Of a stretch of DNA of 64,000 nucleotides, positions 12,072-50,802 are shown in pieces. The position numbers and the translations under genes are program-made. The stretch's first letter is position 1; every line of letters starts with the position of its first letter. The stretch spans positions 29,948,001-30,012,000 of the forward strand of contig OZ076409.1 of the NCBI GenBank assembly GCA_964187785.1, given 5' to 3'. This DNA is from Amphiscolops sp. MND2022 (Eukaryota). The notes under the pieces were generated by a model. That model worked only from the letters and a program-made list of their open reading frames with translations. It was not told where the DNA came from and searched no databases.

Positions 12072-15000
12072 ATGGAGCCCCCAAGATTTAAACTTCAGGT
12101 CGCAAACGGCCATATAGAGGCCCCCACAAAAACAATTCAGCTCCATTTGGAAATCGGCAACTGGTCGTTCAAAGAAACCTTCATCGTTGCCACCAATATA
12201 ACAGGACCAATCCACGGGCAGACGTTCTTAAAAAACAACAGTGCGATACAGGCCGTCAGTCAGGCTTTACTACATTTTACCCACCTAATATACGTCATCA
12301 CATCGGACGGGAATGACGTTGCACCCGCTCACCACAAAATCACCGTCCGAAACCAACTAACGCTGATGCCCGATCAATGCACCACGATAGAACCACCCAT
12401 CAATTTCAGCACAATAGCCAAAACCACTGGCCTAGTCCACCCGATAGAACAATACTCGGTGGTCAAATAAATAGTAGTGGCAAGTTCAATCTCAACGGCA
12501 TCAAATTCCAAAACCGAAATCCGATTAACCAAAACGTCGCCTAACCCCTTCACTCTCAAAAAGAACACGACAGTAGCAGATTTTCAAATTCTCTCTCCAC
12601 GCGAAGCCAAACAGCTACCCCACTGAAAGTCCTGGCAGACGATGACTCCGAAGAGGCGCTGTAGTACGTCAACGAACTCCACAAACCTAACGAGGAGCCG
12701 CAACCGTCCCAAAACTTCTGGTTCTCATCACCCGACATCCCAGGTGATCCCTCAACCCACACCACTATCAAGAGCCGCGTGTTACGGGAGATTGAGGAAT
12801 TGGAATCAATCCAGATACTAAACTCCCAAAACAGTAAAGATGACAGCATTTGCAAGCGTCAATTGGGAGTCATAACAACTCAGCGAGAAAGACTTAGCAG
12901 ACATCGAAGACATACTCGTGGCGTTTATTAACCTTTTCGCCAGGTATCGCCTCGACATAGGAGTCAACAACGAGTTCAAGATAAAACGCACTTCCTAAAC
13001 AGACCAGCCAGCCAACACCTAAACCAGCCAAAAGGATGAATTGACAGTCAAGTTAGCCCTAATGCAGTACTACCGGATTATCACAACGCTCCAGTTCAGC
13101 AAATACGTGAGTCCAATTTTCTTGCAAAGGAACCCCAATTGGAAGCTCCGGATGCTTGTTGACTTGCAAAAATTCAACAATCTCATCGCAGACGAATAGA
13201 TAAACATTAATCACCCGGTGAGTACACTCTCCGACGCTGCTCAACATCTGGCAGGCAAAAAGTTTTTCTCTAAGCATGATTGCTCTCTAGTCTACCACGT
13301 TCTCCAAATGACAGACCAGAAGTCCGTCAAGCGGTTGGTGTTTAACTTTGCAGGTCGGACTTTTGCATACCTACGATTTGCATTAGGGCTCAGCAGATCT
13401 CTCTTCTACTTCTCGAGACTCATGAGGGAGTATCTCGACAGAGTCATTGAAGCTGACAAATGCGTTCAGTATGTCGAAACATCAGGAAAGCCGCCCAAAA
13501 GGCCGAGGTGTTGAAGACCATCCTGCGTGAGGTCTTTCATTGCGTGAGAGAAGCAGTACTGACAATGGCCAAGTGCCAGTTCTGTACCAAAGTCGAAATC
13601 TTTGGTCGAATTGTGTCACCAGTGGGAATCGCCCGTCAAACGCACGAAATCCGAAACTAATTCCAAAAACTGTCGTTTCTAAAGACGAAAAAGGGCCCCA
13701 AAGATATATCGGGTTTGTAAAATACTATCGAAATTACATCCCTCGATTGTCCAAAACCGTTGCCCGTTCCACGAACTAGTGATGGCGGGCAAACCAAATA
13801 AAGTCACGAACGATACCCTGGGCAATTTCAAGAACACTATCTAATCACTATACAACGCCTGTGGCCTTTAGTTGAAACAACCCTTGCCTAACAGGCAATA
13901 TGTATTAATGACTGACGCAAACTACAAGAATGCCGGCTACGCCCTCATGTTAGATGAAAACGCTGAAGAGAACCTCACATCAGTCAGAAAGGCATACGCA
14001 CCAGTTGCATTTGGGTCCAAATCATTCTCCACGGCCCAAATCAAAATTTTCATATTGGCAAAGGAGTTCCTGGTATTATATTTTGCCTTTATGGAGTACA
14101 ACGACAACCTGTGGGGATCGACTAAACCAGTCATTGTCCTGACTGACAACAAGTCAGTGACAAGATTCTTCCAGACAAAGATAATACCCCGAGCTCTATG
14201 GAACGCATGCGACTTCGTATTGCAGTCCAATTTCTCCATCGCCCACGTCCCAGGTAGGTTGAATACTGCAGCGGACTTCCTCTCGCGTCTTGACTTTGAC
14301 CCCAAGGAAAACGTTCAACACCTGATACAAGATGACAATGAAACATCACCTATGTTACCGACGGAGAGCAGTTGTATTTCCTTTCCGAAGACGACCTAAA
14401 AACTGAGGAAGAGATCTGGGAACGATTGCAGCGAGCCCGAAAGAAAACAAAAGGAAACGACACCCATAAATTGCCAACAGACAATGCAATCTCAGACGAC
14501 ACCACACGTCGTTATTTTTCAAACAGAAGTCACCAAACAAAAAGGAGACGCCACCGGAAGATGGCCACCCGACCAATATGAGACACCAACAAGATCATGA
14601 CACAATCTTACGAAATTACAAGCTGCGCCTCCTGAAGGAACCATACCATGAACAGCTCATGGCAACTGACAAGAGAGCAGTACACGACCTAAGAATCCCG
14701 AATTATCCTTTAAAATGGGCTGTTAAACCGACACAGTATTTCGGGAAGACAGGAAAAACCAGGTACTTACAGGTGCTCCTGCCCAAACAGCTTGAAGACT
14801 CGTTTATCAAAGCTCACCATGGAATGAACGACAAACATCCAAGAATCACAATAGTAACACAGCAATGCCGAGAAAAGATTACTTCCCAGGATTAGCAGCT
14901 AAGATCACCAGGCAAATCAATCGATGCATGAAATGCATGGAAACTAAGCAAACGGACAACAGACTACTCACCCCACCAATTATTAATTTGCCAAACTCGC

Positions 15001-16085
15001 ATTGGGACCAGAAGAGGCCTTACAGATGGACATTTTCCCATTCAACGACCCATCGAACTGGTACACGGCCATAGTCACAGCCATGGGCGACGTCTCACGG
15101 TACTTATTCATATACTGCGTTACCAAAATAGACGCAAGGACTATAGCACGAGTACTATTAGACACCCTGACAAGGTCCGCGTATCTCCACACAACCATCA
15201 TCACGGACAAACGAACCCAAATTACGTTCGAAGTAATGAATGACACAACTCCTGTACTGGGCATCCAATTGAGACACGCCACAACGAAACATTCACAGAC
15301 CATTGGCAGGCCTCATTGAGCGAGAACAATGTGGCACCATTTGTGTGCCCATTGCAACTCTCAATTATAACACCACATACCACTAGGTACTCGGCTGCGA
15401 GTCCAGTGGGGTGTTCCACGGCAGAATACCCTACAATGTCTTTGAGACAGAATCCTCTAAGACACAGATAACAGAAGCCGGAGAAGAAGTAATCCAGAAA
15501 ACTAGCTTGATCCATGAGTCAGTGAGCAAGCACATCCTACACTCGTACATACGGTACAAGCAATACTACGATAGGAAAACTTCAGCTCACTCTTTGGAAA
15601 CCAACGATTTTCGCTACGCCTTACACCCACTAGCAAATGACCAAGGGTCAAAGTTACCATTCCGAGAGAATTTGTACACGTGACCGTACAAAATTGTGAA
15701 AACCCTCCCAAACAATAATTACCTTATACGCGAATTAAAAACCAATAGAACTCAAATTTTCCACAGGCTACGCCTGAAACCTTGCTCCACCAAGGACAAA
15801 TCATCAGAAACCCAAGATTTTCAACCCAATAACGATATTGAAGTCCTCCATGACGATCAACATGCCCTAGCATGGCAATCAGGATTCGAACATTTTGTTA
15901 AGCCTAATAACAGCCTCCCTAATGATGAACACACAATGATCCAGCCCGATATTGTCATCAGATCAGAAGACACAATCGAGGACATAGTCCCGGATTTACA
16001 AATCGAATTCAACCATACGCAAGAAAGTCACAACTCAGAATCCGACCCAAAACCGGACCCTCGAAGGGAAAAACAACCTACGTAG
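12072..16085 (+). pseudogene. pol: Gypsy pol (PR-RT-RNaseH-IN), disrupted
   Basis: Motifs include FKLQVANG, STLSDAAQHLAGKK, CVQYVE, MTDANYKNAGYAL, LTDNKS, HVPGRLNTAADFLSR, the integrase HHCC finger (HHGMNDKH...CMKC) and a GPY-like region near 15680. Confidence 0.92.
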
Positions 16086-16392: not shown

Positions 16393-19300
16393 TCAAATAG
16401 CCAAGGAGAAACAGAGGAAAAAATAACAATACAAACAGAAAAAAATACAAATTGCAACCCCAGAACTTACACAAATCGAATGTTTTGCATCAGTCTGAAT
16501 TAAGGTTTTCCATTTATGGGCTCCACGCTTCCTGCACCGCTCTAGTTTCCCTTTCTGGCAGGACGAACGAGAACCACTAAAAGTAGCAGATGAACTGTGC
16601 ACCGGGACCGCAAATAAAGACTGAACATCAATCGAAGAGTGCCCAAGATCCACCGAAGCTACCACCCCAGACACAACCTCAGACTGCAGCGACCCAATAG
16701 CAGCTTGCAATTTGTTAGGAGATGAAGTAGTCGAATACAGACCCAAACCAGCACATCGACGCCTGTCAGAAACTTGCTCCAAATGGTACGAACCAAAAGA
16801 ATCGCGGAACTCGCGGTACAGATCACAATGCCCATGGACATACAACGAGCTCCGCGGCAAACATGAGGCGTCATCCATAACATTCTTCCCATTCGGTAGT
16901 TCCGGCACTCCACATTTCAGCTTTTCCAGGCAGCCTTTGGTCAGAAGCTCGTCCGAAGCGAATTTTGCAAAGGATACATACGACTGACACGCAAAAATTG
17001 ATGAGAACAGAACCTTCTTCGGAACCATCGCACAACTCAACGACATGTCGACATCAGCATAACAAACCGGACAAGGAATCATGACCATAGCTGCTAATTG
17101 CACCGCCCTGTCCAAATTCAACCGCCAGTCAAGCAAGCCCGAAACCCGCATAAACGAAAAACGGTTTGTGATCGAGGTAATAAATTGCTGGTTTCGACGA
17201 CGGACCTCCACGAATAATGACTTTAGCTCATTACTTGCTTCCTCGCAGTTGAGAGATGTCAATCGACCACGCACTAAAAACCTGGCGGTCAGATCCTTCA
17301 ATAATGTCACAGTGTAAGCCTTATCGCCCTGCAACACCATATCCGGCTGAAAACAGCCTAAATTAGAGGCCAGTCCCGATTAAGCATAAGCCGATCAATG
17401 CAATACGTTGGGGAATTCCAGAAGAAACCCATGACACTCGCGGAGGAAAGTACGCCTCAAGGCATTACAACAAGCGTTCACAGCAGCTGCCACAAGAGGT
17501 TCGCCCGAAGAGACTCGATGTACGGGATTTTAGCCCACGTGGTTAAAGGCTGACCGGGATACAAACTCCACGATTCAATTTCGGGCAAGTCACTCAGCTT
17601 CTTTGCCATACCAAGCAAACTCCAATAGAAAAAGCAAAAATCAACATAGTTACGGCAAGTATAATCAGTGACTTCGGTAACAAACTGTTTCTCGAAATTC
17701 CTTTGAAAACACGAAAAAAGTACGTGTAGCACACTCACACGGAGCAACACCATTGTGTCCGAGATGATCAACTGGCCCACATCAAGCAGCGCTTTGCTTC
17801 TAGTTGGAAGAATAGTCCCTGCCTCTATGAAAAACAACTTCACATCATCCCAGTGAGGCAAAAGCTAGGAAATACCCGGGACTAAGGAGACAAAAGGAAC
17901 CTCTCGTTGACGAACACACTTATGAAATTGAGACAAAGGCATCAACTACGGCTGGTGGACTACTTTACCCACGTGCAGAAGCAAAAATCATTATCAGGAT
18001 CCAGAAGATTCGCAATAACCAGACCGGCCTCACGGACGTGTTCCTTTAAAATATTACTCTAGCACAGGCAAAGGCACAGGACGACTTTCAGCTTTACGCC
18101 AGTTCATAAAAACGTTTAACAACGTGGAAAAACACCCACGGACAGAAACCGGCGACTGATTTGCAGGAAGGATGGCAAAAACTTGAGATAAGCACTTTAT
18201 TTCAGCATCGCATAACCTTGGAGCAGGTTCTTTCCAGAGCACACAGACTCCGCGAATAACATCGCCGACGAAGCAACAAACAAAGCAACGTAACCCGGTG
18301 TCATCACCGCAAAACGACACACTAAAGTCAGCATCTTCACACCCAGATTGCAACCGACGTAAAATGTGGAAATACAACCTCTGACACGGAATTACGAATG
18401 ATTCAGTTTTGCTCCATGTGGCTTGCGCATAGCTGGCTTCTGCTGGAACCGTTGTATTGAATTCATTTACAAAGACGTCTAAGGAAACCGCTTCGCAATT
18501 GCTCAAATAGCCCTGCCACTAGTGTCTAAGAAGGGACATCAAAACAACGCCAACGAGTGCATCGACTTCATCGTCAACAAACGCAATCTTCCGAATAAGA
18601 ACAAAAACGGAAGTCTTTTTAATCTCTGCTTGTGATTCTGGGGAGATCGAAGCCTTATCAATTGCATCAAACTTGACAGTATAAACAACATCTTCATGGT
18701 CAAACGGATAACGACGGTCTTCTGCAAAGTGTGTTTTGCAAACGGATTGCCTCCAAATCTCGATTTCCTCACGCCACAAAAAGAAATATCTTTCTGGCAA
18801 AGAGTGCAATTAAACCCACTTGGATTTTTGTGTGACCGTTAGCATACAAACAACCGCGGGTTGGGATGCCATTCTCTTGCAAAGAACATAAAGTTCAGTT
18901 TGTCTCTTCTTCCTCTTCTCAAATTTAGCGTGGAGCCGGGTCTTTGTCTCCTCCCCCGCGTTCAAATGCATCCGGGCACGATGTAACTGATTGCCCTTGC
19001 GCTTGAGCAACTGTACGACCTCATCTAAACCTAAACAACGAAACCGAAACCTATATGGATAGAACAACCGAAAACTAATGACCAACCCCGAAACCCACGA
19101 CAAGCAACTAGACCAGGCACCCTTTAGCAGAAAGACAAACAATTTTTACGGCGAGATAACAAACGCGCTTCTTGTCGACTGTAGGACCGCTCCAAATGCA
19201 CTGCTGTCTGACCGAAATCTAAGATATGGGAGGAAGACAAGCACATTGCCCCGTCAGGTACTTCAGTTAGCCCCACTGAAAACAAAAAGTGGACTTAACC

Positions 19301-24390: not shown

Positions 24391-24899
24391 ACAGTATATA
24401 TGGATAGAGGTTATATATGTGTAAACACTATTTACTGAATAGTCTCCATGACATTTCATGAAGTCGTCACTTTCATTGTTTCGCACACAGGTATTGCCTA
24501 ATAGGATGACATAACTCCCAGTTGTTTGATTCCAGTTATGGCTCTGGTGGTCAAGGCTGTGCATTCCTATGTAAGTTGAAACAGGCAGTTACAGGTTATA
24601 CTAAAATAATAAGTTCTAGCTTGTTTGAATGGGTCTTCTGCAAATGTTACAATGTCGATCCTTTTTATTAGTTTTAAGATCTGTATAAAAAACAGAATAA
24701 GTGAGAGAAAAGAACTTTAAGGGTTTATGATCGATAACTTCAATGAGTTTAATCGGTTGGGTGATTTGAGAACTGGTGTTTTGTGTAATTGAAAAGCGAG
24801 ACCGAAATTGGATCAAAAAATTTGGGATCGAATTGTTCGGTTTTGGTTATGTTTTTGCTTCTGCAAAGCGCTTAAAAACTTTAGGTAATTTAGTCTTAC

Positions 24900-25072
24900 T
24901 AATAAAGGGTGATTTACGCTGTATGCACGCTTGCCCTCACCGTCGCAAAGAAAAGCTCCCAATACGATCGCTTTGCGATCTTCGTTCCCGCTAGGATTTT
25001 GCTCCTGTTCGGCCTCGCTTCGCAAGATGGGAACATAAGCGTCCGCGGGGCACTAGAAAAAATGAGGGCAAA
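24900..25072 (-). repeat. Shared GC-rich cassette, copy D (diverged, inverted)
   Basis: Its reverse complement aligns by eye to 28369-28552. Confidence 0.85.
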
Positions 25073-26518
25073 GACGAGGGTCAAAACCATTATTTGAAAA
25101 CGCAAGGTAATTGAAAACATTGCTTCCATCTCATTTTATTCAACCATTTGACTTCGATATCAGAGACAGATTGCCTATTCGCGCACCTTGATTCGATCCA
25201 ACCATCCACCACCAATTTACCCAATAGGAAACTCCCAAAACCGAGTAAAGCTCAAAGAAAAACTTTCACTGAGCTATTTACCGGTTGAAATCGGTAGCTC
25301 AATGATGATCGTGTCGTTGAGAAAAAACCGAAACGCAACAGAAAACCGCAGCAAAAAAGCGAGTTGGATCGACGACAACGTTCCATTTGCACTAAATTGG
25401 ACGAAGGTAATGTTAAGGCCGGAATCAGAATTAGCGTAATTATTGTGATGCGCTTGTTGAATAGCTTCAGAGATGGCAATGATTTGAATTTGACACAAAT
25501 CATAATATCTCTGACGCTGTTTTCTTGCTGTCCTTGGGCTGAAAGAACCATCACAACCCGGTGGGATAATTCCATTAATATTTCATTTTATCAAATCAAG
25601 GTTTTGTTCCATTTACGGATTGCTTCACTGTTGTGATTTTTTTGGGGGAGACTGGCACACACCCAAATGTGGTATTCCTGCAATTGGTTAGGTTTCGAGG
25701 TTGAGTTGTGATGAAAAACAACCAAACCTGCAACGCTCTGAAGTGTTTGAAGCCTTCAGGGTTTATAGACTGGAAAAATTGTAGGCTTTGCAACGGATGG
25801 GTTCATAAAAAATGTGCCAATTCATCAAGAACGGAGGCCCGGAGCCTTGCTGAATTTAAATGTAGTAGGTGCTTTTTAGTTAAAACAATCCCTCAGTGTC
25901 AGGATGATAACTTTAGACCAGACACCCTTTTTAATTCAGGCGTTGTTTACTTGAAAAGAGTTCCTAAAAACTCACGGATCCTGAAATCTTGATACCCAAA
26001 ATTAATGATATTTGTGAAACCCCGCAAATTTTGCCTTGTGGTGCTTACTGCTCTCCTCTCTAAGCTGTTTTTTGGAAAAACCACCTCGAGGAGTTAAACG
26101 TCAGAGGACATCCCTCAGTGCAATTATCAACAAGCGTATTCGGGATAGTGTCATTGAGAAAAAACCGAAACGCGAAAAAAACCGCAGCAAAAAAACGAGT
26201 TAGATCGACGACTGCGTTCCATTTTCACTAAATTAGACGAAGGTAATGGTAAGGCCGGAAACGGAATGGCAGTAGGCGACAACAATATTTCAGATTTCAC
26301 GGTCGACAACTACGTTGCCCTCAAGCTGAAACATCCGCAGAGGGAAACTTGTTCTGTCTGGACCCCACGGATATCGATTGTTTCTCAACCTCAGACTTTT
26401 TTGTCCATAAGGCTCTAATGTCCTTCCCAATGGGTTTGACGAATGAACAAGAAAGTCCTCTCGATGGAACTCAGAAAAAATGGACACAACCTGTCTACGT
26501 CAAAACCGCCCACGATTT

Positions 26519-27070
26519 GGTAAATGGTCACTTGGCTTAATGCCATTTGGCTTAAAGTCATTTGGCTTAATACAATTGGTCACTTGGCTTAGTTTTTTTA
26601 AGCTAAGTGTCTCGGGTATTGGTCACTTGGCTTAAAGTCATTTGACTCGATATCGCTTAGTTGAAAACACGTGGCAGATTTTGTCTAATTTATCTTTATA
26701 ACGTAGTCAGCGTATTATTATAACATGTCATATCAAGTACCACTCGGATATGTCTCCATTTCCTCTCGTGCCCTGCGGCCCCTTGGGGCCGCTTATATTC
26801 CCATCTTGCTAAGCGAGGTCGAACAGGAGCAAAGACCTAGCGGGAACGAAGATCGCGTAGCGATCGTAGTGGAAGCTGGTCTTTGCGACGGGGAGGGCGA
26901 GCGTGCATACACCGCATATGCTCCACTTTATGGTATTTCCGGGAGTTGACATATTTATTCCCTGGAACGGAGTTGGCTTAATTTTGTGGTCACTTGGCTT
27001 AAAATTTTTAAGCCAAATGACTCGACGAAAAATTTAAGCCAAATGGTATTAAGCCAAGTGACTGGTAACC
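26519..27070. mobile_element. Foldback MITE 1 (TTGGCTTAA repeat arms), 8-bp TSD CACGATTT
   Basis: TSD at 26511-26518 and 27071-27078. TIRs are GGTAAATGGTCACTTGGCTTAA / TTAAGCCAAGTGACTGGTAACC. It contains cassette copy A (26748-26930). Confidence 0.9.
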
Positions 27071-27308
27071 CACGATTTGATTGCCAGAATGGATGACAAA
27101 CGTTCGAAAGTTTTTAACGCTCATCAAGGCAAAATCGGGTCTCAATGGCTCAACGTCGTTCCTTGCAAGAACCTAGGCCTAAAACTTGATGATCAGCAGC
27201 TTCGGATTTCAATTAGTTTGCGTCTCGGAGCCAACTGTGTTGCGCATACGTGCCACTGTGGTAAAAGAGTTAAACGGGACGGTTTACACGGTCATTCTTG
27301 CACCAAGC

Positions 27309-28040
27309 GGGAGATTCCCGATTCCAAATTTTTCAAATTCGATTTTCGATTCCCGATTCCGATTCCCAGGGCGGCGATTTCGAATAATCCAGTGTCCAAG
27401 ATATAAAACGGGTCGATTCCGATTTTTTTTGAGAAAGACGCACTACACACTTTTTCATGGAATTTTGGAATGCACACATCTTGACGCAGAAAACTTTTAT
27501 TACCCGGACCAATCACGTCAGTTCTCACCAATTGGATTATAAGCAATCAAGTGGTGCAAGTCATTTTGCATAAAACAGGTACATTTTTTGAGAAAATGCG
27601 GGCCAAGGCTTTATCGGATAAGTTATCTGTTCAAATATGAACTGCTGATCACATGTATAGTGAAGCTGATGACATATCGTTCCATGATTTTGAAGCACGA
27701 ACTGAGATGGACGACTTTGAGATCTTAGAATGGCTTGAAAATTTTGGCCCAACCAGCGTGGATACATAACGGATGTTTTTCTTTGCGAGATTGAGTAGAA
27801 ATTTTCTTCAGAACCGCTTGTCTACCGCCAGTCATTCGAGAAACGTGTTCTTGAATCGCAATAAATTGTTTTCCTGCAAGTAATTCCACTTGTTTTTGAT
27901 CATGTTTGCTTGATTTGAATAATTTATAGATTGTCATAATTTTTGTTTTTTGTTGCCGAAAATTGAGTTAATCGTAAATCCCGATTCGATTCTCAACGTG
28001 GCGATTCCGATTCTGTAATTTTAAGGAATCGAAAACCCTG
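27309..28040. mobile_element. hAT-like MITE (CGATTCC repeats) with a damaged left end
   Basis: The right end GGAATCGAAAACCCTG is a CAGGG-type TIR, and there are CGATTC subterminal repeats. It interrupts the CRE ORF. Confidence 0.6.
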
Positions 28041-28134
28041 AAGCAGACGTTGGGATCTCTCGACTTGTCTTAAGTGCTCGAACCGCGTGGACAGTACCGA
28101 ACTGATGGCAAACGCCCAGACGGAGTTACCATGA

Positions 28135-28680
28135 GTGGGCACAAACTACGATCTAAGGAATAAGATCGAAACGCACTTCTGTAACTAAGATCTAAAGAAC
28201 TAAGATCTAAATGTCATTTTTCGTAACTAAGATCTAGAGAATGCCAGCTCCCGAATCGTAACTAAAGTCTAAATTTTAGACGTTATTCCCGTTTTAATTT
28301 CCGTTATTCCCGTTTTTAGATGTTACGGGTAAAGTATAAAATGCTTTAAAGTATAAAACGTGCCTCAGATATGTCCCAATTTCCTCTAGTGCCCTGCGGC
28401 CCCTTGGGGCCGCTTATGTTCCCATCTTGCTAAGCGAGGTCGAACAGGAGCAAAGACCTAGCGGGAACGGAGATCGCGAAGCGATCGTAGTGGGAGCTGG
28501 TCTTTGCGACGGTGAGGGCGAGCGTGCATACACCGTATATGACCCCACATTATTCCTTAGACGTTATTTTAATTCAATTTAGACCTTAGTTACGGTGCAT
28601 GCTTTTTAGATCTTAGTTCTTTAGATCTTAGTTACGAAATTTCTTTAGATCTTATTCCTTAGACCTTAGTTGCGGTCCCC
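28135..28680. mobile_element. Foldback MITE 2 (TAAGATCTAA repeat arms), 9-bp TSD TTACCATGA, Mutator-like
   Basis: TSD at 28126-28134 and 28681-28689, with long inverted arms. It contains cassette copy B (28369-28552). Confidence 0.92.
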
Positions 28681-28905
28681 TTACCATGATTCCCTGGGAA
28701 ATGGGTAAACAGCTGGTGTGGGATGTCACGGTTGTGGATGCCCAGCCGTCTGAATGAAGGCTCTTTATGCAACTCTTCATACACCGCCCCCGAGGCTGAA
28801 GCGCGTAAAATTGAGAAGTATCGCGAATTATTAGACAATGGATACATTTTTCAACCGGTGGCCTTGGAAGTACAGGCTTGTTTAGGCGAGAGCAGTGAAA
28901 TTTTC

Positions 28906-29338
28906 GGGTTAGGGACAATTTGCCGAAAGACAATTTGCCGAAAATTGACTCAGGGACAATTTGCCGAATTTTTTTCGGCAAATTGTCCCTATGAATTTGC
29001 CGAATTTTGTAGGGACAATTTGCCGAATATGCCCCCATTTCCTCTAGTGCCCCGCGGCCCCTTGGGGCCGCCTATGTTCCCATCTTGCTAAGCGAGGTCG
29101 AACAGGAGCAAAGACCTAGCGGGAACGGAGATCGCGAAGCGATCGTAGTGGGAGCTGGTCTTTGCGACGGTGAGGGCAAGCGTGCATACACCGTATATGA
29201 CCCCATATTAGGTGAGGAAACCCAATTTGCCGAATGTCAGGGACAATTTGCCGAAAAAAATTCGGCAAATTGTCCCTGAGTCAATTTTCGGCAAATTGTC
29301 TTTCGGCAAATTGTCTTTCGGCAAATTGTCCCGTATCC
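28906..29338. mobile_element. Foldback MITE 3 (GACAATTTGCCGAA repeat arms), 9-bp TSD GAAATTTTC, Mutator-like
   Basis: TSD at 28897-28905 and 29339-29347, with inverted repeat arms. It contains cassette copy C (29027-29210). Confidence 0.92.
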
Positions 29339-30975
29339 GAAATTTTCATCACGCGTCTCTGTAAAATGCTCTGTCGTTCGCACGACGAACAACGAGTTGG
29401 CAGCTTTTTGAAGCAACGGATTTCAATGGCTCTTCAGATCGGCAATGTGGCCTGTGTTCTGTGAGGAACTGTGAGCGACAGATGCGTTCGAAGAAATTTA
29501 TTACATATAGCTAATTTTTTTTAAACCTCAATATCATTGCAGCTTCAAAAGAAAATTCTACCGGTCGACTGCGATGATGGCTGGTATGAGTAGTTTGTTG
29601 GTTGCTTCTTTTTGCTACTGGGATAGGGGCTGGTATGGGGTTTCCTTTCGTTGCAGACCACGGGTGTGTGTCTTCTCCCCCCAACATGATGATACACATG
29701 AAGACAATTCTTTTGGCGTTGCTTCTGGGATGGGTTGAGTTTTCAGGTTGCTGCCGTGTTTTCCTAATATTCAGTGTTTTGACTTCCAAGAATGAACTCA
29801 GGTGAAATACGTGCAGTACTGAAATTCTAGATTCCTCCAGGTGTCTATATACGTCTTCAGCTCCAATGCGGACATAGTATACTAAGCCTATGCTCTTGAG
29901 CTATAAAATTTTATCAACTTGTTGGGATGATCTAAGGGGAGCTCGGGGAATGTTTGGATGATCTGTTGTGGTTCTGTTCATCACGTCGTGACAGAGAATG
30001 ATACCTTCAGATTTGGTGACCAACTTGACACGACTTTGCCCCACTTTTGCTCTTTGCAATGACTCCGTTGGACTGAGGCCTCCTTCAATGACTCCTTTCG
30101 ATAGTTTGATTCTGTATTTGATTTTCTTCCACCTCTCCAAGGATAATGAAAGAGCTTGCACCACTCACAGAAACCATTCAGAAAAAGCCACCACGGCTGC
30201 CCTCGAACTTCAATAAATCTGGAACTATGTTTGCTTCATAATCGTTCAATGACCGTTTTGTTTAATCAAGAAATTTATGTGTTCTTTGCTTCATAATCGT
30301 TACCTTTTCACGAGCCTCATCCAGTTTCTGAATTGAAATGTCCTCGATCCATTGAACTCTCAGGTTGCATGATCTCGTTTCTCAATTCTTTTTGTTTCCT
30401 ATCTTTTGTCTGTCGCCCGGGCTGGGGGCACATGATGAATGACGAAGCGCTGATTGATGACGACGATCCAATTCTGATATAACGCATCTGAAACTATTTA
30501 CTATTTAGAAGATACAAGTTACTATGAGCTTATAGAAATTTATAAGCCTGTCAGTTCGTCGGTCTTGAAAAAATTCACTACTATTGTCTGTTCTTTCTAC
30601 GAAAGTGCCGACTAAAAAGTGTGTTCTTTTCAATATCTTCCGAAAAACGTCGTGGTAATCAAAAATTGTCCGATAAAAAAGGGAATTGAATGTAGACCTC
30701 TTATTTAATGAGATCCAAACAATCTAATCGCCGTCATCAAAGCAAAATTATCGGTCTAGACAAAAGTGAAAACATGTCAGATCAAAGATCTTGATTTAAA
30801 AAACTGTTGAAATTTATATTTCTGTTTTCTTGTGAGCGGTTGTGGTGACTACTCAAATCGTAGAATATTCAAACCGTGGAAAAAACGTTTTTCCTTCAAT
30901 CAGAATTGGATCGTCGTCATCAATCAGCGTCTTTAAAAAACGCTTCTTTATTCATCATGTGCCAAGATAGGAAAC

Positions 30976-32379
30976 AACAAGACGGGATCGTCTCAAGTCG
31001 GCGCCATATCTAAGGCTCAAAAATATTCAAAGAACAACTAAAGTCGCACAATGCCGAAAAACTCAAAAAGAGGCCATTCAGGCTCATTAAACGTTTTTGC
31101 AAACCGAAAACGTCAAAAAAATGCAAGGGGTTACCCTTTGATAGAATCCGAAAATTTTCGAAAAAGTCGCATAGTACCGAAAAAAACGAAAAAAATCAAA
31201 CGAAAGAAAACCTTTGGTCTCGCATCTACTTTTGGAAGCATAAAAAATTTGTGGTTTAGTGCGAGAATCGAACCCACGATCTCCGGCTTCTCAGAAAATT
31301 AGTTGAACAAATGAACAAAAATTGTAAGAAAAGTGGACCATTCAGAGTGAGATTGTAGGCTGAAAAAGAACAAGACGAGAACGTCCAAAGTCGGCGCCAT
31401 ATCTAAGGCTCAAAAAGTGCAAAATTTTTTTGGAAAAAAACTTGTGATTTTTGAACAAAAATTTTCTTTCAAATAAAGTCGCATAGTGCCGAAAAATATA
31501 GAAGGGGGGACCCTTTGGGATTGATTAACATACATTCAGTTGCAAAATATGAGAAAACTCGAAGGGGGGACCCTTTTGAGACAATAAAATTTTTTTCGAA
31601 AAAAAAGTCTCACAGAGCCGAAAATACTCTAAGGAGGGCGTACCCTTTGGCCCCTTCGAGTTTCTAAGATGATGTAAAAATACTACTTCGCAAGTATTTT
31701 AAATTTGCTAAGTAAGAATTGTAAGATTTTAAGATTGTAAGAATTGTAAGAAAAGTGGACCACTCAGAGTGAGATTGTCAACTGAAAAAAAAACAAGACG
31801 GGAACGTCCCAAGTCGGCGCCATATCTTAGGCTCAAAAATATTCAAGGAACAACTATTGGAAAAATTTGGAAAAAATTTTTTTTTCAAAAAAAAAATTTT
31901 GATTTTTTTTTCGAAAAAAAGTATTTTTTAGGTCGCACAATGCCGAAAAACTCAAAAAGAGGCCATTCAGGCTCATTCAACGTTTTCTACAAACCGAAAA
32001 CTTCAAAAAAATTCAAGGGGGTACCCTTTGATAAATTTCGAAAATTTTCGAAAAAAGTCGCATAGTGTCGAAAAAAAACCCAAAGGGGGGACCCTTTGGT
32101 CTCACATGTACTTTTGGAAGCATTAAAAAATTTATGGTTTAGTGCGAGAATCGAACCCACGCTCTCCGGCTGGGTCGAAGATGGAAGATGAACAAATATG
32201 AAAGATGAACAAAAATTGTAAGAAAAGTGGACCACTCAGAGTGAGATTGTCAACTGAAAAAAAAACTACTCACTGTAAGAGTCGGGCTTTTTTCCTTAAG
32301 GGAAAAGGCGCCGACTAAAGAAAAAACTACTCACTGTAAGAGTCGGGCTTTTTTCCTTAAGGGAAAAGGCGCCGACTAA
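30976..32379 (-). mobile_element. Cluster of three HINE/DINE-1-like (Helentron-associated) elements, family A
   Basis: Ends of the type AACAAGACGGGAACGTCCCAAGTCGGCGCCATATC occur at 30976, 31369 and 31792. The other end has the GCGCCGACT subTIR plus a hairpin and is duplicated at 32262-32379. Confidence 0.75.
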
Positions 32380-32384
32380 AAACG

Positions 32385-32850
32385 TTCTAACTACGCTGGC
32401 CGCATTGCCTGCCTGGATTGCGAGAGAGAGTCTCTGCCTGAAAAACGACCCGGCTCTATTTTCCTGGTTGAACACGCACAATTTTTTACACAGGTTCTTC
32501 AAGGACGTGGAAGGTCCGACTCCTCCCTGAATTTCAAAGGCTAAGGGTTGGAAGATGTATCCTTTGTCAGTCAAACAAACGTACTTAGCTGTTTTCAATT
32601 CCTCTGCATCCTCAGCGGCTGTGCCCGGGTTCGCAACAGATCCGTTCTCTATTCTGCTGGGGGCAAGAAGATCGACACAAGTAACATCCCAAACTAATTG
32701 CTTGCCTTCCTCCCAGGGCGCAAGGGTAATTCCGTCTGGGCGCTTTCCGTCTGTTCGGGTCAGACCATCTGGTTCCAGAATTGAGGGAACTTTGATGGAA
32801 CTCAGCGCCTGTTTCACTAGAGTATTAAGGTTGTGGTGCCTCGAGAAACG
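32385..32850 (-). mobile_element. 3' fragment of a second CRE-like element (restriction-like endonuclease domain)
   Basis: Reads RFSRH, LEPDGLTRTDGKRPDGITLAPWEEGKQLVWDVTCVD, KTAKY, FQPLAFE and RQRLSLAIQAGNAASV. Confidence 0.9.
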
Positions 32851-35820
32851 TCGAAAAAATCAAAGCGTCGAAAGAATTCCATAGCGATTATTTTCAGGTT
32901 ATAATTTGAAGAGGTTAGCATATTTGTTGTATGGCTCCGCCGCTTCGCTCCTCTCACCAAGTAGCAACATTGAGGCATGGCCATATGGCACGTCGCTCCG
33001 CTTCGCTCCTGCATTTAGGGCTCTAGGAGTATGTGGATATAGCTGACTACGTTATCGTAATTAGTTCGTCGCTTGTGCTGTATTCATTTTACTGAATTTG
33101 ATTGGTTCATTGAATGAAAGTTTGGTCACGTGACTATGACGCGCAGTATTTACTGCGTGTAAACTGCTTTCGACGCTTTGAATATTTTATGATTTGAACC
33201 GTCCCCAGGGGTTGTGGTTGAGTACAACTCGGAACCCTCACCAGAAAATAGAAAATCTCCTTCAAAATCGTTCTTCACTGATGGGACAAAAATTCGCTTG
33301 TTATAAATTGCGGAACTTTAAATTTTGTTTAAGGCGAGAGACACCGAGAAGTGACTGCAGAAGTCGACTGCTTTCATTGAATAAAATAATTATCGAAAAT
33401 GCTGATATCGCTTGTCCTGTTGACTGACACCTGGTTTAACTTCTGTTCCTTGGACACCTCATTCAAGACCAAAGCATTTTAAAGCAGTTTTGTGAATTGT
33501 TCTTTCGCCACTCTTGCAGCCGCCACAGAACTTATCTTATGATTGGCAGACAGCAGTTAAGTTGTTGATTGGTATGTGCTATGATTGTTGTATGTGGTAG
33601 CCCTAGTGGGAATGTTTTCCTTTTTTCCCTACTCGTTGGTCATCCGTGCCTCAATTGACAAAGAATTTTTGAATGAAGGCGACAAATGCAGGCTGTGTTA
33701 GCGTCTTTTTATGCCCGAAAGGCTGCAGCGCAGAAAAATTGTGTTCAACAAATGTTGCTGCGACCAAGTCTCTCTCTCATGGAATATTGAATATCTAAAT
33801 CGCATCCCCGCTTCTCGCCTATTAACCGCGTTGTACAGCTCGCCTTCTTACCTTCATTAGATGGGAGCTGCTTCGTTGTTGTGTGAATATATACGTATAT
33901 AAAAACCATACATATATGTATATTGCGTGTGCTGTGTAGTAATAGTTTTTATCCCCGTCGGTCGACTTGTGGCGCAGAGAAGAGAGGTGGTGATGTGGCA
34001 ATGGTGCTAGATGCTTTTAGTTGTAGGATGGTATAGTAGGTGGTCGTGGGGCAAGTAGAAGTTGCCTTCTCTCTTTCTCCCCGTCTACCATTCAGTGTCT
34101 TCTCTTCATTGCCTACCGTTGTTCGGTTTTCTCTCCTTCCCATCTATCTTATCTACGATCGACCTCTGCATGCTTATTAAAATGACTACAAACTACTTCC
34201 CAAATACTTGCACTACACACACTCCCGCCCGCCATTGCCAAGCAGCAGCAGATACCCCAATTTGTGTGCGCGCCGGCAATAATTACCAATCGCTGCATCC
34301 AACGCAAGATTTCTCTTCCCTCTTCCCCGCAATCAATTTTGACAAAAATTGACACGTCTATGTTATCTCCAACACTTGCTTAGCGACGGCGTGCCAAAGT
34401 TCTTTTGAGAACCCCTCCCCTTTTGAAAACCCCAATATATCCCAACGAATAGATGTTTAGAAAAAGTCAGTTTCATCGACCTAGAAAATATCATTTCACG
34501 GGAAAAAATAATGCATCAAAATTTACCCTTGTATCAAACTTTGCCACTGCTACGTCACCAGTGGAAAATTTTCTCAGTATCAGCCAAGATAGTTTTCTGA
34601 AAGCTTGTAGGTGTTTCGTTTTACTGTTGTGGAACGATAGTCGGGAAAACAGCACTTTAGTCAGTTTTGACGGAACGTTTTTTCTGAACCAACTGAATTG
34701 AAAGTTATTAATTGAAGTGTTAATTGAATCAAATTAAAATTTTTATTTGGAGCTTTGCTGAAATACAATTTGTATATACCAAATTTTTTATATACCATTT
34801 CAATTTTCTCTTGTATTACTGAACTTCATTCGTACTACTTTTATCTCAAAGTTTGCGGATCATTGAATTGACTCGTGTATATACGTTTGATACGTGTATC
34901 GACATCAATAATTGATCCACATTTATTAGTGGTTTCTTTTTTACATAGCATTTATAATGTTCTTCGATGATTTCTGGATTCATTCGTCTGTTTTAAAGTT
35001 ACTCTGTAGAAAATGAATTAGTTGCAAGTGTTCCTTCCTTCATATGCAGTGCGTTCACTATATAGAAACAGCTCTCGAATTATTCTGTTATGTATAGATT
35101 TGAAGCAAAACTTTTCATTAATTTTACTATTCTGCTTATCGTTTGATTCATCTTTATTCATAACCGGCAATCGATTGTCCATCGATTACTTCCCGATTCC
35201 TGATGCTCATTTTTCAGTCGGCCAGACTACTAGTAAAGAGTGCAAGAATCTTACAGTGGCAAGTTTTCGTCAGTCACTCTGAAGCGCCATTTGGCTTAGC
35301 GGTCAACGCATATTTTCGGTCTGGTGATGGGGCCTGAGAAGCAGGAGTACATAGGTTCTTCGCCAGTATGTGACTTTTCGATTTTTTTGAAGTGAAAAAT
35401 TGACAATTTTTGGTTTGTTGAGGATTTCTGTTAAGGAAAACCGTTTTCCGAGTCTTACGGATGACTTTTGGTTATTTTTGGTACTGATGAGAGTTTTCTC
35501 AATATGTCAATATGTGTAGAAAAGATTAAGGTTTTTTCGGCACTGCGCTACTTTTTTTCACAATTTTTGCGAATTTGAAGGGTCTCCCTTTGGGTTTTTC
35601 GGCACATCAGAAAGAAAAATTCCGTAAATTTTTTTTTCAATTCGGTTTTTTGATGCTTCGAGTGAGGGGAAAAGCTGTTTTCGAGTGTTATGGGTATCTC
35701 TTCGGGTATTTTTTGGCACTGCAAATTCGATGAAAATTTTCACAATAGTGTCCCTAAACATAGCTTATTACACTTTACTCTACTTTGAGCGGGACGCCGT
35801 CTGGGGCACTTCCCGGTTTC

Positions 35821-37509: not shown

Positions 37510-40500
37510 TTAATTGATAAAACGACCGTCAAGACGGGTCCCTCACGTACAAACTCAACTTCAACTAACCCGGCGAAGAAAGATGAAGGTAGTAATCACC
37601 TGGTCGAATGCACAGGATAGTGTTCGCAGTGTGATTACAGTTAATGAAAGAATAATTTTGTTCCTGAATAATGAAAAGTTGGTTCTTGACAACCTCTATA
37701 AGCTTCAAAAATAGGATGCGGAACTACTTAATTGTGCCTATAAAAGATTGAAGAAGTACTCCCCCTGAGACATCGGGATATCTGACAAAATTTTCTTCTG
37801 TATGCTGAACTTTTGATGTTATGCTGCGGTGACATTGAACCGAATCCAGGTCCTCAGATGTGCTATGAAAACTTTTTCAAAATATCTGAAAAGTATAAAA
37901 GCAACTTACGCTATGTTCATCTGAACTTTCAAGATGTATCTAAAAAAAACATATGCAATTGAAGTCTTTTATTAATGACATGGGCAAAAACGCTATTATT
38001 GGAATTTCTGAAAGCTGGCTTACTCCTAACGATAAAATGTCGTCATGGAATGTAGCTCCGAAAACTCAAACTTTTCAGATGCGACAGGAGTTCAGCTAAC
38101 TGTAAGAAGAAGGGCGGAGGAGTTATGATTTTTGTACCCTTGAGACTAGCTCCAATCGAACGTGATGGTTTAAATCTCTTCGATAACTCAACTTTTGATT
38201 CGTTATGGGTAGAATGTCGTTGTAATTTTTCGAAAAACTGCAAGTCTAAAATGCTTTTGAATATAACTTATAATCCCTTGAAGAAATACCAAATTGATTT
38301 CCTTGAACACTTAATGACAAACTTTGATAATGCATCTTGTGAATCTATGGAAATAACGCTTATGGGTGACTATAACTTGGATTACCTCACTCCGCTTGAA
38401 AAAGAAAATCTTGATACGGTAGTGTTACCTTATGGGTTTACAGTAGCTTCTCCTTATTTACCAACTCGAGTATGCAAGTCCACAAAAACCCACATTGATT
38501 ATATACTAGCTGAAAATATTGATGAGAAAAGTTTTGTTTTTGAAACTCCTTTCAAAACTGATCACTTCTGTTCTGTTTTGTTCACCGAAGTAAGTGCGGG
38601 TAAACAAAAGTGCATAAGACTACCCAGATTTGACAAGACAAAATACGTAAAGGCTGCTTTTTGCCAAACACTGTCAGATATTCCATGGTGCAAAATCTAT
38701 CGATGCTCAAGTGCTTATGATATGTTCAATGTTTGTTTATCTGCTATCAAGTGCCCTGGAAAAGCATGCTCCTTTCAAAAAAGTTTTCTTGAGGAAAAAA
38801 ACTCCGAAACTTTTCAAAGAAACTTGGTTTGACGAGGAATGCAAAAACTTACTACGTGAACGGCAGTTGGCCTTTGAAAAATTCATGATCTGGAAATTGG
38901 TCTGCTTATTGTAAACTACGATCAAAATTATCGTCCGTTGTGAAAGAAAAACAAAGATTTTCTTGGAATTGTTTTATCTCTCTCAAATCGTCAAAAGACC
39001 GCTGGAACTTTATAAACAACGTACGGGGTCAAAATCAATCAGTCAACATTGCAGCTGTGAAAAATTCTTTTGGAGACTTGATTGTCGATGATAAGAAAAT
39101 TGCTGAACACTTCAACTTCATCTCAAACCTTGGCCAATATTTTGGTAGAGAGTATGAGAGTGCTCCTGTATTTAAGGCTGGTGATGAGTCGTTCTGCTTC
39201 TGCCCAATTACAGAAAAAGATTGTTATGATATTTTGAAACAAATAATTCCCCACAAACCAACTGGTCCCTGTAAAGTACCTGCATGGGCAATTATCGACG
39301 GTCAAAAAATCTTAGTCCCTCATCTGACATTTGTTCTAAATGAATGCATCAAGGATTGTGTGTTCCCTTCAATGCTAAAAAGGGCAGTAATAACTTCAAT
39401 TTTTAAAAAAGATGACATCTTGGACCCGTTAAATTATCGCCCCATTTCAATAACTACTCCGTTCTCAAAAATCTTCGAGAAATGTCTGCACAAAAAAATA
39501 ACTGCTTACGCAGAGAGTCGTGGGATACTCACACCACTTCAATTTGGTTTTCGATCGAAAGTTTCTGCGCAAGTTGCCATTTTGTATTTTATTGAAACAA
39601 TCCAACACGAGATCGAAATTGGAGATATAGTACATGCTGTCCTACTTGATCTATCTAAAGCTTTTCACTCACTTTCACATCAAATTCTTCTCAAGAAACT
39701 CGAATCGTTACATTTTTCACCTTCGGCTACACAAATCGTGGAAAGTTTTTTTAACAGGTCGATTGCAACAAGTCTCTGTGAATGGTGTTCTGTTTGAATG
39801 GATTGAATTGAAACAAGGTGTCCCCCAAGGAACAGTCGTAGGACCATTATTTTTCAACCTGTATGTGAATGATCTTCCAGAACTTATAAGCAGACCTGCT
39901 CATATATTACAGTATGCTGACGATTGTTTAGTTTTCTGTAGTGATAAAAAATCTGAGATTGCTCTTGAAATATTGCAAGACAATATATATAAATTAGAAT
40001 ACTTTTGTATGAATAAGCTGAATTTAGACGGAAGTAAAACGGAATTCATAACCTTCTCCCTCAAAAATGATAAACGCCTCAACGACTCAGAAACAGTTAC
40101 TGTGGGCTCCACCTTAGTAAAGAAATCAGACCATTGCAAATACTTAGGTGTAACCATTGATAAACACCTCGGGTTCCAAACACAAGTTAAAAAGGTGCTG
40201 AAAAATATGGCAGTTGGTATAAAAACTGTTGAAACTGTCCAACACAGGTTTTAAACTGGGGTACTTCTCATGCTTTTCCACGCACTTGTGATGAGTCACC
40301 TGGAATATTCTCTATTGTTTTTCTTCAAAGTTAGTTCTTCTTTGTTGCTCTCACTAGAAAAACAGATGAATTGGGCTTTGAAAAGCGTGTTTTTTTGTTC
40401 GAATATCAAGTCATCTCATGAATTGAGAAAAAACAAAGGTATAATCAGTATACGTCACTTGATTATGTTCAAATCCCTGATTTACTTCTTTCAGTACATT

Positions 40501-40920
40501 AATAATCAAAAAACTTTCCAAAACCAGTTGAAGTTACCTACAGCAACATATCGATGGAATTCCCGTACGAATCAAGTTATTTATACGGGTAATTTTTCAT
40601 CTGTTTCAACTTCATCATTCTTTCATTGTACTGCACTGAAGTGGAACTCACTACCACTACATATGCGAGATCCAAGTGTGAGTCTACATGTATTCAAAAG
40701 TAGATTGAAAATTCATCTGGAAAAAGAGTCAAATGCAGTTCCTATTCAGGTAGCTAGTACCTGGCGTGATTTCCGCTTCAAATAAACCTGTCTGTCTTTC
40801 TTTTTAATTGTTGTAAAGTTTGAGAAAACTACTTATGCTTGCATAAGTCATCTACACTTATTGTATGGTAAGCTATCAGCTATCCCCTTACAATAATATA
40901 GTGTTGTCTCTCTCTCTCTC
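37510..40920 (+). mobile_element. L2/CR1-group LINE ORF2 (2A-APE-RT), frameshifted, inside a HINE-A copy (~37121-41261)
   Basis: APE motifs ISESWL, GGGVMIFV, MGDYN, HIDYI and TDH. RT motifs NYRPISIT, QFGFR, DLSKAF, GVPQG, YADD and KYLGVTID. Ends in a (CT)n tail at ~40907-40920. Confidence 0.93.
37801..37854 (+). other. 2A-like ribosomal skipping peptide (YAELLMLCCGDIEPNPGP)
   Basis: ggt gac att gaa ccg aat cca ggt cct encodes GDIEPNPGP, matching D[V/I]ExNPGP immediately upstream of the APE domain. Confidence 0.85.
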
Positions 40921-49194: not shown

Positions 49195-49693
49195 AACAAG
49201 CCGGGAACGGCCCAAGTTGGCTTCATATCTAAGGCTCAAAAATCTTCACGGAACAACAATTGGAAAAACTTGGCAAGAAATTACTTTTTTTTCAAAAAAA
49301 CTGTTTGGTAAAAAAAGTCGCTTATTGCCGAAAAACCCAAAAAGAGGTCATTTAGGCCCATTAAACGTTTTTTACAAACCGAAAACTTTCAAAAAATTCA
49401 AGGGGGTACCCTTTGATAGAATTCAAAAATTTTCGGAAAATGTCGCATAGTGCCGAAAAAAACCGCAAAGGGGGGACCCTTTGGTCTCCCCAATACTTTT
49501 GGAAGCATAAAAAATTTGTGATTTAGACTCCAACCCACGCTCTCCTGCTTCTCAGACCCCAGAAAATCCGGGTTAACTTCTCGGCCAAGAAGTTGAACAA
49601 ATGAACAAAAAAAGTGGACCGATAAAGTTGAACTGACGAAAAAAACTAGCCACTCTAAGAGTCGTGCTTTTTCTTCGAAAACGCCGACTAAAA
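49195..49693 (-). mobile_element. HINE family A complete copy
   Basis: Both ends are present: AACAAGCCGGGAACGGCCCAAG and GAAAACGCCGACTAAAA. Confidence 0.75.
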
Positions 49694-50475: not shown

Positions 50476-50545
50476 CCCCAGAGAGATTCGAACCCGCAGC
50501 CTCCCGATTGCACGGCACAAGTGGTGACCACCGTGCCATAGGGAC
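50476..50545 (-). pseudogene. tRNA-derived (SINE head-like) sequence; copies at ~52921-52990 and ~55393-55462
   Basis: The minus strand has A-box-like TGGCACGGTGG and B-box GGTTCGAATC at tRNA spacing, but no intact acceptor stem. Confidence 0.55.
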
Positions 50546-50802
50546 GTTATTGAACAAAGTAGAACTGTTGAATATATACGCATGTGATTAAAATAATTTA
50601 TATACGCATATTAAAATAATCGATGTCTTCGTCATGTGTTGCGAAGCACCGCTTCGCCTCTGTGTTCCAATTATATCATTGCTTAATGCATTAAAATTCG
50701 CTGTCTTTTTATCGTCTACTTGACGCGTCATAAACATTCTCTAATATCATTAAATGATGAGGCAACGCCTCTTAATTTTCGTTCATTTTAGACTGAAATT
50801 GG

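What the first reader, a model, noticed from the sequence alone, without database searches (positions are those of the whole stretch)
26519..29338. One conserved ~184-bp hairpin cassette carried by three foldback MITEs with unrelated arms
Seen: three MITEs have their own TSDs (8, 9 and 9 bp) and completely different repeat arms (TTGGCTTAA, TAAGATCTAA, GACAATTTGCCGAA). Each holds the same cassette in the same orientation (26748-26930, 28369-28552, 29027-29210), and copies B and C differ at only a few bases. The cassette is bracketed by imperfect direct repeats (ATATGNCCCCAT-like). It can form several stems: GCGGCCCC-TT-GGGGCCGC, GTTCCC/GGGAAC enclosing two hairpins, and GATCGC-GAA-GCGATC. Inference: it is either a hitch-hiking element that targets foldback spacers, or a functional cargo (cis-element, promoter or structured RNA/ssDNA) retained while arms are swapped. 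I do not recognise this modular arm/core arrangement as a named system.
Basis: partly seen in the sequence, partly recalled or inferred. Interest (0 to 1): 0.8.

Follow-up and report, generated by a model that had tools for sequence, protein, structure and literature searches.

The report
Foldback transposons swapping arms around core
Three small non-coding jumping elements with different ends carry the same 184-base middle piece, which recurs at hundreds of other places with many kinds of ends, likely because new ends get inserted on either side of an old middle piece and carry it off, while any use of the piece itself remains untested.

Summary
Elements A, B and C each have their own target-site duplication (8, 9, 9 bp), sit in one decayed retroposon and share a 184-bp core (92-97% identical). 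A fourth, decayed core lies at 24899-25070. "Completely different arms" is only partly right: A and C align, B does not.

No genome was held. Translating the core in a stop-free frame retrieved 247 spurious ORFs from other loci. They show the core inside a larger interior that is shared by about ten repeat-arm types. They also show apparent hand-over stages: a coreless mini-element with a compatible 9-bp duplication, whole mini-elements inserted beside the core and then amplified with it, trimmed junctions, and mixed left and right halves.

Best reading: Mutator/Foldback-type MITEs whose interior is passed between arm families by nested insertion and trimming. I found no sign that the core moves alone or is a known RNA; support for conserved structure is weak. 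Coral CMITEs (different ends, conserved interior) are the known kind. New here are the foldback arms, the scale and the visible intermediates. Whether the core is selected stays open.

The parts
26519..27070 (+). Element A: foldback MITE, arms of ~15-bp-period motif repeats, asymmetric 7-bp ends starting GG
   Evidence: TSD CACGATTT at 26511-26518 and 27071-27078; P0197 reads across the empty host site
26671..26747 (+). A-type left extension, shared with other loci and with other arm types
   Evidence: P0126, P0148, P0182, P0239 match it; cluster L1, n=35
26748..26930 (+). Core copy A
28135..28680 (+). Element B: foldback MITE with a motif not alignable to A or C
   Evidence: TSD TTACCATGA at 28126-28134 and 28681-28689; another B right arm with core in P0195 (92.5%)
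28369..28552 (+). Core copy B; frame 28370-28552 is stop-free and was used as the search probe
28396..28413 (+). GC-rich hairpin 1 of the core (also in A and C); collapsed in D and replaced or lost in up to 33 of 247 other copies
28906..29338 (+). Element C: foldback MITE with a perfect 77-bp inverted repeat (28914-28990 / 29239-29315); a trimmed derivative lacking both extensions found in longer C relatives
   Evidence: TSD GAAATTTTC at 28897-28905 and 29339-29347; P0377 and P0216 carry the missing parts; same trimmed junction at other loci in P0371 and P0374
29027..29210 (+). Core copy C
24899..25070 (-). Core copy D, decayed (83-89% to A, B, C)
24758..25194 (-). Remains of the larger element around D: extensions that match a further family with a defined right end; inverted arms and TSD not demonstrable
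   Evidence: 8 right flanks and 1 left flank match; arm alignment reached by 345 of 1000 shuffles, no clean TSD
26430..29461 (+). Host: decayed non-LTR-type retroposon coding remnant, collinear pieces at about 26430-26525, 27068-27307, 28008-28136, 28680-28905 and 29339-29461, interrupted by A, a fourth insertion, B and C
   Evidence: the retroposon label is recalled from the protein motifs, Pfam gave no hit on the related ORF

Best explanation
A, B and C are separately inserted non-coding foldback elements, likely of the Mutator/Foldback type, and the 184-bp cassette is the central part of an abundant interior that is likely handed from one arm family to the next rather than moving on its own. 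Shown, with other loci known only through translations: (1) short palindromic mini-elements without the core exist; (2) such elements insert into the interior of other core-bearing elements, beside or inside the core; (3) the composite is then found at several unrelated sites with one shared inner junction; (4) shorter versions lack the inner end and the extension; (5) left and right halves occur in mixed combinations. Inferred: the order of these events; that the outer ends of the newly inserted family are what the transposase uses; that trimming is by microhomology deletion and mixing by recombination or template switching in the core; and that the 184 bp are mainly what survives trimming from both sides.
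For: Abundance: 272 ORF clusters of 108 aa or more among 424 candidates; 329 representatives at E<=0.001; 247 distinct ORFs retrieved and analysed. Several contig lengths recur between core hits and host-retroposon hits (186230, 179546, 373538, 960605), so these are very likely one assembly. Arms: 139 of 175 flanks of 40 aa or more match a repeat prototype, against 6 of 116 control ORF ends. This count includes the prototypes' own ORFs and one type (F5) that looks like a host repeat. Coreless element: P0378 has both C-type ends, no core, and codons compatible with a 9-bp TSD only (k=7, 8, 10, 11 fail; chance 23 of 3000). Right-side capture: 12 of 32 cluster-R1 ORFs with a long enough flank carry a C right-type terminus facing the core, most at the same place about 17 codons out; P0133 and P0194 run on to the far end with different hosts. 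Left-side capture: P0127, P0160, P0199, P0211 and P0368 share one junction between a whole family-3 mini-element and the A extension, with five different upstream hosts. Nested insertion: P0371 is a copy of window C sitting in another core; 11 of 233 flanks hold a second core piece. Trimming: window C lacks about 14 codons present in P0377. Mixing: cluster R2 pairs with L1, L2, L5, L6 and L9, and R5 with L2, L3, L9 and L11, against strong diagonals L1-R3 15, L3-R1 15, L4-R4 15. Type: 8-9 bp TSD, asymmetric 7-bp ends and tandem motifs as in Tm1 (PMC3169594) and Muta1 (PMC5225508). P0200, a whole family-3 element with core, is also compatible with a 9-bp TSD. Exchange of ends and interiors through nested or adjacent insertion is proposed for maize Mu (PMC10401008).
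Against: Other copies were seen only as translations of stop-free, gene-called frames, found with the core as probe. This hides coreless elements, synonymous sites, far ends and most TSDs. No single ORF shows whole mini-elements on both sides of one core. No transposase was found (0 in 104 window frames of 88 aa or more; 0 in 150 of 247 ORFs), so the superfamily rests on ends alone. Neutral trimming does not obviously explain why many unrelated junctions fall within a few bases of the two core ends. It also does not explain why only 1 of 9 lineage-level variant codons lies in the central codons 18-54.
Confidence: 0.6

Rival explanations
1. The core is a selected cis-module (transposition enhancer, chromatin or pairing signal). 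Any arm family that captures it amplifies better, which is why it is kept with sharp borders. This is compatible with the hand-over mechanism and differs in why the core persists.
For: Junctions crowd at the core ends. The centre has only 1 of 9 lineage-level variant codons. Predicted paired sites change less than unpaired ones, ratio 0.78-0.88; 1, 6, 9 and 17 of 161 shifted masks do as well. A short motif recurs at both ends and weakly in the middle. Precedent: the interior of rice Ost35 enhances transposition (PMC3660474 passages); the same idea was raised for CMITEs.
Against: A coreless C-type element appears to have transposed, and 2 of 8 non-self C-arm ORFs are coreless, 3 core-linked, 3 undetermined. 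Hairpin 1 is lost in D and preceded by foreign sequence in up to 33 of 247 copies. An amplified subtype (R4, n=16) lacks part of the 3' repeat. Stem changes are 787 one-sided against 22 two-sided, of which 11 still pair. The RNAalifold covariation term is unfavourable (+1.44).
Confidence: 0.27
2. All elements descend from one ancestral MITE. The arms changed in place by concerted mutation of their motif, tracking diverging transposases, while the core stayed similar.
For: A and C arms align in register with the same layout. By eye, a further family shares A's spacers but has a changed motif (control hit c6_b matches both types). Extension types and core haplotypes are linked.
Against: B arms do not align to A or C, yet B and C cores are 172/177 identical. 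A and C share only 12-14 of the first 22 nt while their cores share 163/177. Whole mini-elements with internal termini beside the core are not predicted by descent alone.
Confidence: 0.1
3. The core is an independent mobile cassette (SINE-, Helitron- or tyrosine-recombinase-type) that inserts preferentially into foldback spacers.
For: Imperfect direct repeats at both ends and sharp borders. On the - strand a GC palindrome is followed after 6 nt by CTAG, like a Helitron 3' end (seen; rule recalled). A few ORFs join the core 5' end directly to foreign DNA, for example P0197, P0134 and P0155.
Against: About 20 more shared bases follow that CTAG, the next base is A, and copy A lacks the CTAG. No tRNA and no Rfam family over the core at E<=10 beyond weak chance hits. 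Shared extensions run on beyond both core ends and are linked to core haplotypes. Of the 8 of 247 ORFs with two unclustered flanks, none shows an evident duplication around the core by eye.
Confidence: 0.07

Closest known systems
Coral CMITEs (Acropora; PMC2872659, parts 1-3 of 4 of the text read)
   Same: MITE families with different terminal repeats share a better-conserved interior of unknown origin; tandem copies occur; one element has the interior of another family; a role in transposition was proposed but not tested.
   Different: CMITEs are about 100 bp with 13-14 bp TIRs, a 75-bp interior, TTAA TSD, piggyBac type and six families. Here elements are 430-550 bp with foldback motif-array arms, 8-9 bp TSDs, a 184-bp core plus variable extensions, about ten arm types, and visible nested and trimmed intermediates.
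Tm1 Mutator/Foldback family of root-knot nematodes (PMC3169594, passages)
   Same: Asymmetric 7-bp ends, then GGA, then 13-15 bp tandem motifs, mostly 9-bp TSD; element C has this layout. One subgroup carries a conserved hairpin cargo (histone hairpin).
   Different: Tm1 is one arm family with several interiors. Here one interior has many arm families, and no transposase is linked.
Muta1 and other Aedes aegypti MULEs, type 2 foldback (PMC5225508, passages)
   Same: 8 or 9 bp TSD; 10 of 14 families have 9-15 bp subterminal tandem repeats; many families coexist in one genome.
   Different: Their non-autonomous derivatives share arms and have heterogeneous interiors, the reverse of this case.
Maize Mu heteromorph/homomorph cycling (PMC10401008, passages)
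   Same: TIRs and internal sequence are exchanged between divergent clades; nested or adjacent insertion followed by loss of the internal TIRs is one of the proposed routes.
   Different: It concerns long plant TIRs and transposase genes, not one short non-coding core shared by many MITE families.
Merlin superfamily (PMC8101967, passages)
   Same: Terminal GG and 8 or 9 bp TSD.
   Different: B's left end is GT, the terminal 7 bp are asymmetric, and the passages read do not describe foldback motif-array arms; no Merlin transposase was found.
Sea-urchin TU foldback elements (recalled; the search did not retrieve a source)
   Same: Modular foldbacks whose middles are themselves dispersed repeats.
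   Different: As recalled, similar arms with different middles; not checked here.

Membership tests
MITE (non-autonomous TIR element) | Short, non-coding, terminal inverted repeats, TSD, many copies | tested here: met
   433-552 bp; inverted arms and TSDs; no Pfam domain in ORFs over them; A, B and C arms at other loci
Mutator/Foldback (MULE type 2 foldback, Tm1/Muta1-like) | 8-10 bp TSD | tested here: met
   8, 9 and 9 bp; 9-bp compatible in P0200 and P0378
Mutator/Foldback (MULE type 2 foldback, Tm1/Muta1-like) | Long TIRs made of 9-15 bp tandem motifs behind a short terminal motif | tested here: met
   period 14-15 arrays; ends differ left and right in the first 7 bp and then match
Mutator/Foldback (MULE type 2 foldback, Tm1/Muta1-like) | Autonomous partner with a MULE DDE transposase and matching ends | not testable with these tools
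   no genome held; none in the window or in 150 of 247 ORFs
Merlin | Terminal 5'-GG and 8-9 bp TSD | tested here: inconclusive
   5 of 6 window ends start GG, B-left starts GT; TSD length fits
Merlin | IS1595-type transposase with matching TIRs | not testable with these tools
   no genome; none in the window
CMITE (coral) | Interior more conserved between families than the ends | tested here: met
   cores 92-97% identical; ends 5-14 of 22 between families
CMITE (coral) | TTAA TSD and piggyBac-type terminal motif | tested here: not met
   8-9 bp TSDs and G-starting ends: works like a CMITE, is not one
tRNA-, 7SL- or 5S-derived SINE, or known structured RNA (core) | Homology to an Rfam family or a tRNA | tested here: not met
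Helitron (core) | Element ends at hairpin plus CTRR, inserted between A and T (rule recalled) | tested here: not met
   shared sequence continues past the CTAG, next base is A, copy A lacks it
Structured RNA or ssDNA under selection (core) | Compensatory changes and stem conservation | tested here: inconclusive
   weak stem bias, no excess of compensatory change; only changes inferred from amino acids were available

The most novel reading that the evidence does not exclude
The core is a family-independent selfish module. It raises transposition or steers insertion towards other cores, and has repeatedly changed vehicle by recruiting the arms of whichever foldback transposase family is active, so that the interior, not the ends, is the persistent replicator.
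Probability: 0.25. Interest if true: 0.75.

Novelty: new variant of a known kind. Interest (0 to 1): 0.46.

Why it matters
MITE families are defined by their ends, and interiors are usually treated as disposable. The one close precedent I found (coral CMITEs) left the origin and role of a shared interior open. This genome appears to hold hundreds of copies, about ten arm types and several intermediate forms, so both questions can be tested on one assembly: how an interior changes arms, and whether it helps. It also warns that repeat libraries built on the core would merge families moved by different transposases.

Tried and rejected
No genome was held. The look-up of sequencing runs: none was listed, which is no evidence on expression. 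Rfam: only sub-threshold hairpin hits on the arms and three weak chance hits on the core; a resemblance to the SRP RNA S-domain that I recalled got no support. ARAGORN found 0 genes. DNA pattern scans: metagenome contigs 0 then 25 loci with a shorter pattern, prokaryote genomes 0, viral contigs 6. In 31 of 31 loci the BLAST match stops within about 20 nt of the seed; the one longer nhmmer hit (L009, 17.8 bits) shows no real likeness on reading. I treat all as chance. A profile of the four cores finds no further core in the window, so the other foldback-like repeats there lack it; no TSD was found for them. My first idea that D is an armless solo core was dropped: its flanks match a larger family, though its arms and TSD could not be shown. 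One search used residue positions off by one for P0378 and gave 0; one search is the corrected test, and the null comes. The stop-free frame in the core is not taken as coding: no Pfam hit above cut-off in 150 ORFs, and neighbouring ORFs read the core in other frames and on both strands. F5-type repeats were first counted as arms; P0168 and P0235 suggest a separate host repeat. Literature searches found no report of a shared core across foldback or Mutator arm families other than CMITE (found); the library lacks most subscription papers and Repbase/Dfam were not searchable.

Full report
Observation. Each lies inside an element with inverted arms and its own duplication: A 26519-27070 (8 bp), B 28135-28680 (9 bp), C 28906-29338 (9 bp). 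For A a 10-bp reading also fits the window, but 6 of 6 other A right ends are compatible with the extra terminal C. All three interrupt one collinear coding remnant, which I call a non-LTR retroposon from recalled motifs, and another locus reads across A's empty site (P0197). They are therefore three separate insertions. A fourth, decayed core lies at 24899-25070 on the - strand; a profile search finds no other in the 64 kb. All four fall within 4.3 kb, but the window was flagged for this cluster, so I put little weight on it.

Arms. The arms are not all unrelated. A and C match at 12-14 of the first 22 bases in fixed register, and A-left aligns to both C arms above all 300 shuffles. One of 23 letter permutations does as well; I expect this is the complement, since the arms hold the motif in both orientations, but I did not check which. 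B aligns to neither. The layout (asymmetric 7-bp ends, 14-15 bp tandem motifs, 8-9 bp TSD) is that of Tm1 (PMC3169594, passages) and Muta1 (PMC5225508, passages). Merlin also has GG ends and 8-9 bp TSDs (PMC8101967, passages) and is not excluded. No transposase was found in 104 window frames.

Getting other copies. No genome was held, and DNA scans gave only chance seeds. One frame of the core is stop-free, so gene callers have turned other genomic copies into spurious ORFs. Searching with that frame gave 272 clusters among 424 candidates of 108 aa or more (120 listed) and 329 representatives at E<=0.001 (150 listed): 247 distinct ORFs in all. Contig lengths shared with hits to the host retroposon suggest one assembly. 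These counts are lower bounds, and the sample is biased to full-length cores and open frames.

What the flanks show. 139 of 175 flanks of 40 aa or more match a repeat prototype, against 6 of 116 control ends. The count includes the prototypes' own ORFs and one type that is probably a host repeat. About ten motif types recur in two or more ORFs. Both ends and a TSD were checked only for A, B, C, family 3 (P0200) and the coreless P0378. Between arm and core lie extensions of a few types (194 left and 220 right flanks of 247). They are linked to each other (L1-R3 15, L3-R1 15, L4-R4 15) and to core haplotypes, but also mix: R2 occurs with L1, L2, L5, L6 and L9. The 184 bp are thus the common centre of a larger interior. 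D's flanks match one of these families, although its own arms are too decayed to show.

Hand-over stages. A search with C's left arm gave 8 other ORFs: 3 core-linked, 2 coreless, 3 undetermined. Coreless P0378 is compatible with a 9-bp duplication and no other length from 7 to 11 (chance 23 of 3000). In 12 of 32 R1 ORFs with a long enough flank, a C right-type terminus faces the core, mostly about 17 codons out. P0133 and P0194 run on to the far end with different hosts. Five ORFs share one junction between a whole family-3 mini-element and the A extension, with five different upstream hosts. P0371 is a copy of window C inserted in another core, and 11 of 233 flanks contain a second core piece; open-frame bias inflates that count. 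Window C lacks both extensions and the inner terminus that its longer relatives have. Read in order, these give a route: a mini-element inserts beside the core, its outer end moves the composite, and the inner parts are trimmed. The order and the transposase step are inferred, and no ORF shows capture on both sides at once. The route is among those proposed for maize Mu (PMC10401008, passages). Template switching at microhomology is documented for animal Pack-TIRs (PMC8277862, passages), and microhomology deletion for MITE birth (PMC3814204, abstract). Plant MULEs with extra internal TIRs are known, though there nested origin was doubted (PMC3310237, passages).

Is the core functional? It is GC-rich (56.5% against 40.1%) and folds modestly (z about -2). 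It matches no Rfam family or tRNA. Base changes inferred from the 247 ORFs (7 diagnostic codons left out, codons 1-57 only) fall slightly less often in predicted stems (ratio 0.78-0.88; 1-17 of 161 shifted masks as low). They are nearly all one-sided: 787 against 22 two-sided, 11 of which pair. RNAalifold on the four window copies gives an unfavourable covariation term. Hairpin 1 is replaced by foreign sequence in up to 33 of 247 copies. In favour of function, junctions crowd at the two ends, and only 1 of 9 lineage-level variant codons lies in codons 18-54. The rice Ost35 interior enhances transposition (PMC3660474, passages). I put selection on the core at about one in four.

Independent cassette? 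The end repeats are real, and the - strand has a hairpin followed by CTAG. But shared sequence continues past the CTAG, extensions are linked to core haplotypes, and only 8 of 247 ORFs have two unclustered flanks, none with an evident duplication by eye. Unlikely.

Comparison and novelty. Coral CMITEs have different TIRs around a more conserved 75-bp interior, with origin and role unresolved (PMC2872659, parts 1-3 of 4 read). This finding works like them but fails their TTAA/piggyBac test. Searches found no foldback or Mutator example; subscription papers, Repbase and Dfam were not covered, and no supplements were read. Earlier notes of this scan describe shared cores in bacterial and archaeal MITEs; these are unchecked analogies, and look-ups by sequence, by place and by other words returned nothing. 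Verdict: a real feature and a new variant of a known kind; interest 0.46.

Noticed in passing
window 27308-28007: A fourth insertion in the same retroposon remnant, with CGATTCC-type repeats near both ends and no core; no TSD found in the ranges searched. Possibly hAT-like (recalled).
   Followed up: partly
window 32860-33100: Piece of an abundant repeat that at other loci neighbours or hosts many core-bearing insertions (matches from P0138, P0146, P0163, P0167, P0168, P0175, P0181, P0199 and others).
   Followed up: partly
window 32296-32920 (-): Second, better preserved copy of a related retroposon coding remnant; about 40 close relatives (75-97%) without names in the protein collection.
   Followed up: partly
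window 24820-24875 (-): The right extension of D holds a degenerate copy of the core centre (10 of 1000 shuffles).
   Followed up: partly
P0123, P0124, P0183, P0185; P0127, P0143, P0162, P0198, P0225, P0352, P0361: Second core pieces close to the first, 4 in the same orientation and 7 inverted; tandem forms recall CMITE arrays.
   Followed up: partly
window 50375-57739: Tandem triplication of about 2.45 kb at 97.7-99.6% identity, containing small inverted-repeat elements (51490-51772, 51944-52479) without the core.
   Followed up: no
window 62478-62634: 157-bp palindrome, 89% self-complementary, with a partial match at 12020-12069.
   Followed up: no
window 59929-61187 and 62800-64000: Direct repeat of about 1.2 kb at 90.5% identity.
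   Followed up: no
window 16393-17379 (-) and 18054-18518 (-): Long open frames (328 and 154 aa) with no Pfam hit.
   Followed up: no
window 3-3959 (-), 13872-16082 (+), 38056-40785 (+): Broken retroelement remnants: RT and zinc knuckle; RNase H and integrase; a further RT in several frames.
   Followed up: no
window 25705-25989 (+): Weak PHD-finger hit below Pfam's cut-off, just upstream of the retroposon remnant.
   Followed up: no
window 30427-30963 and 49633-50865: Further inverted-repeat pairs without the core and without a TSD in the ranges searched.
   Followed up: partly
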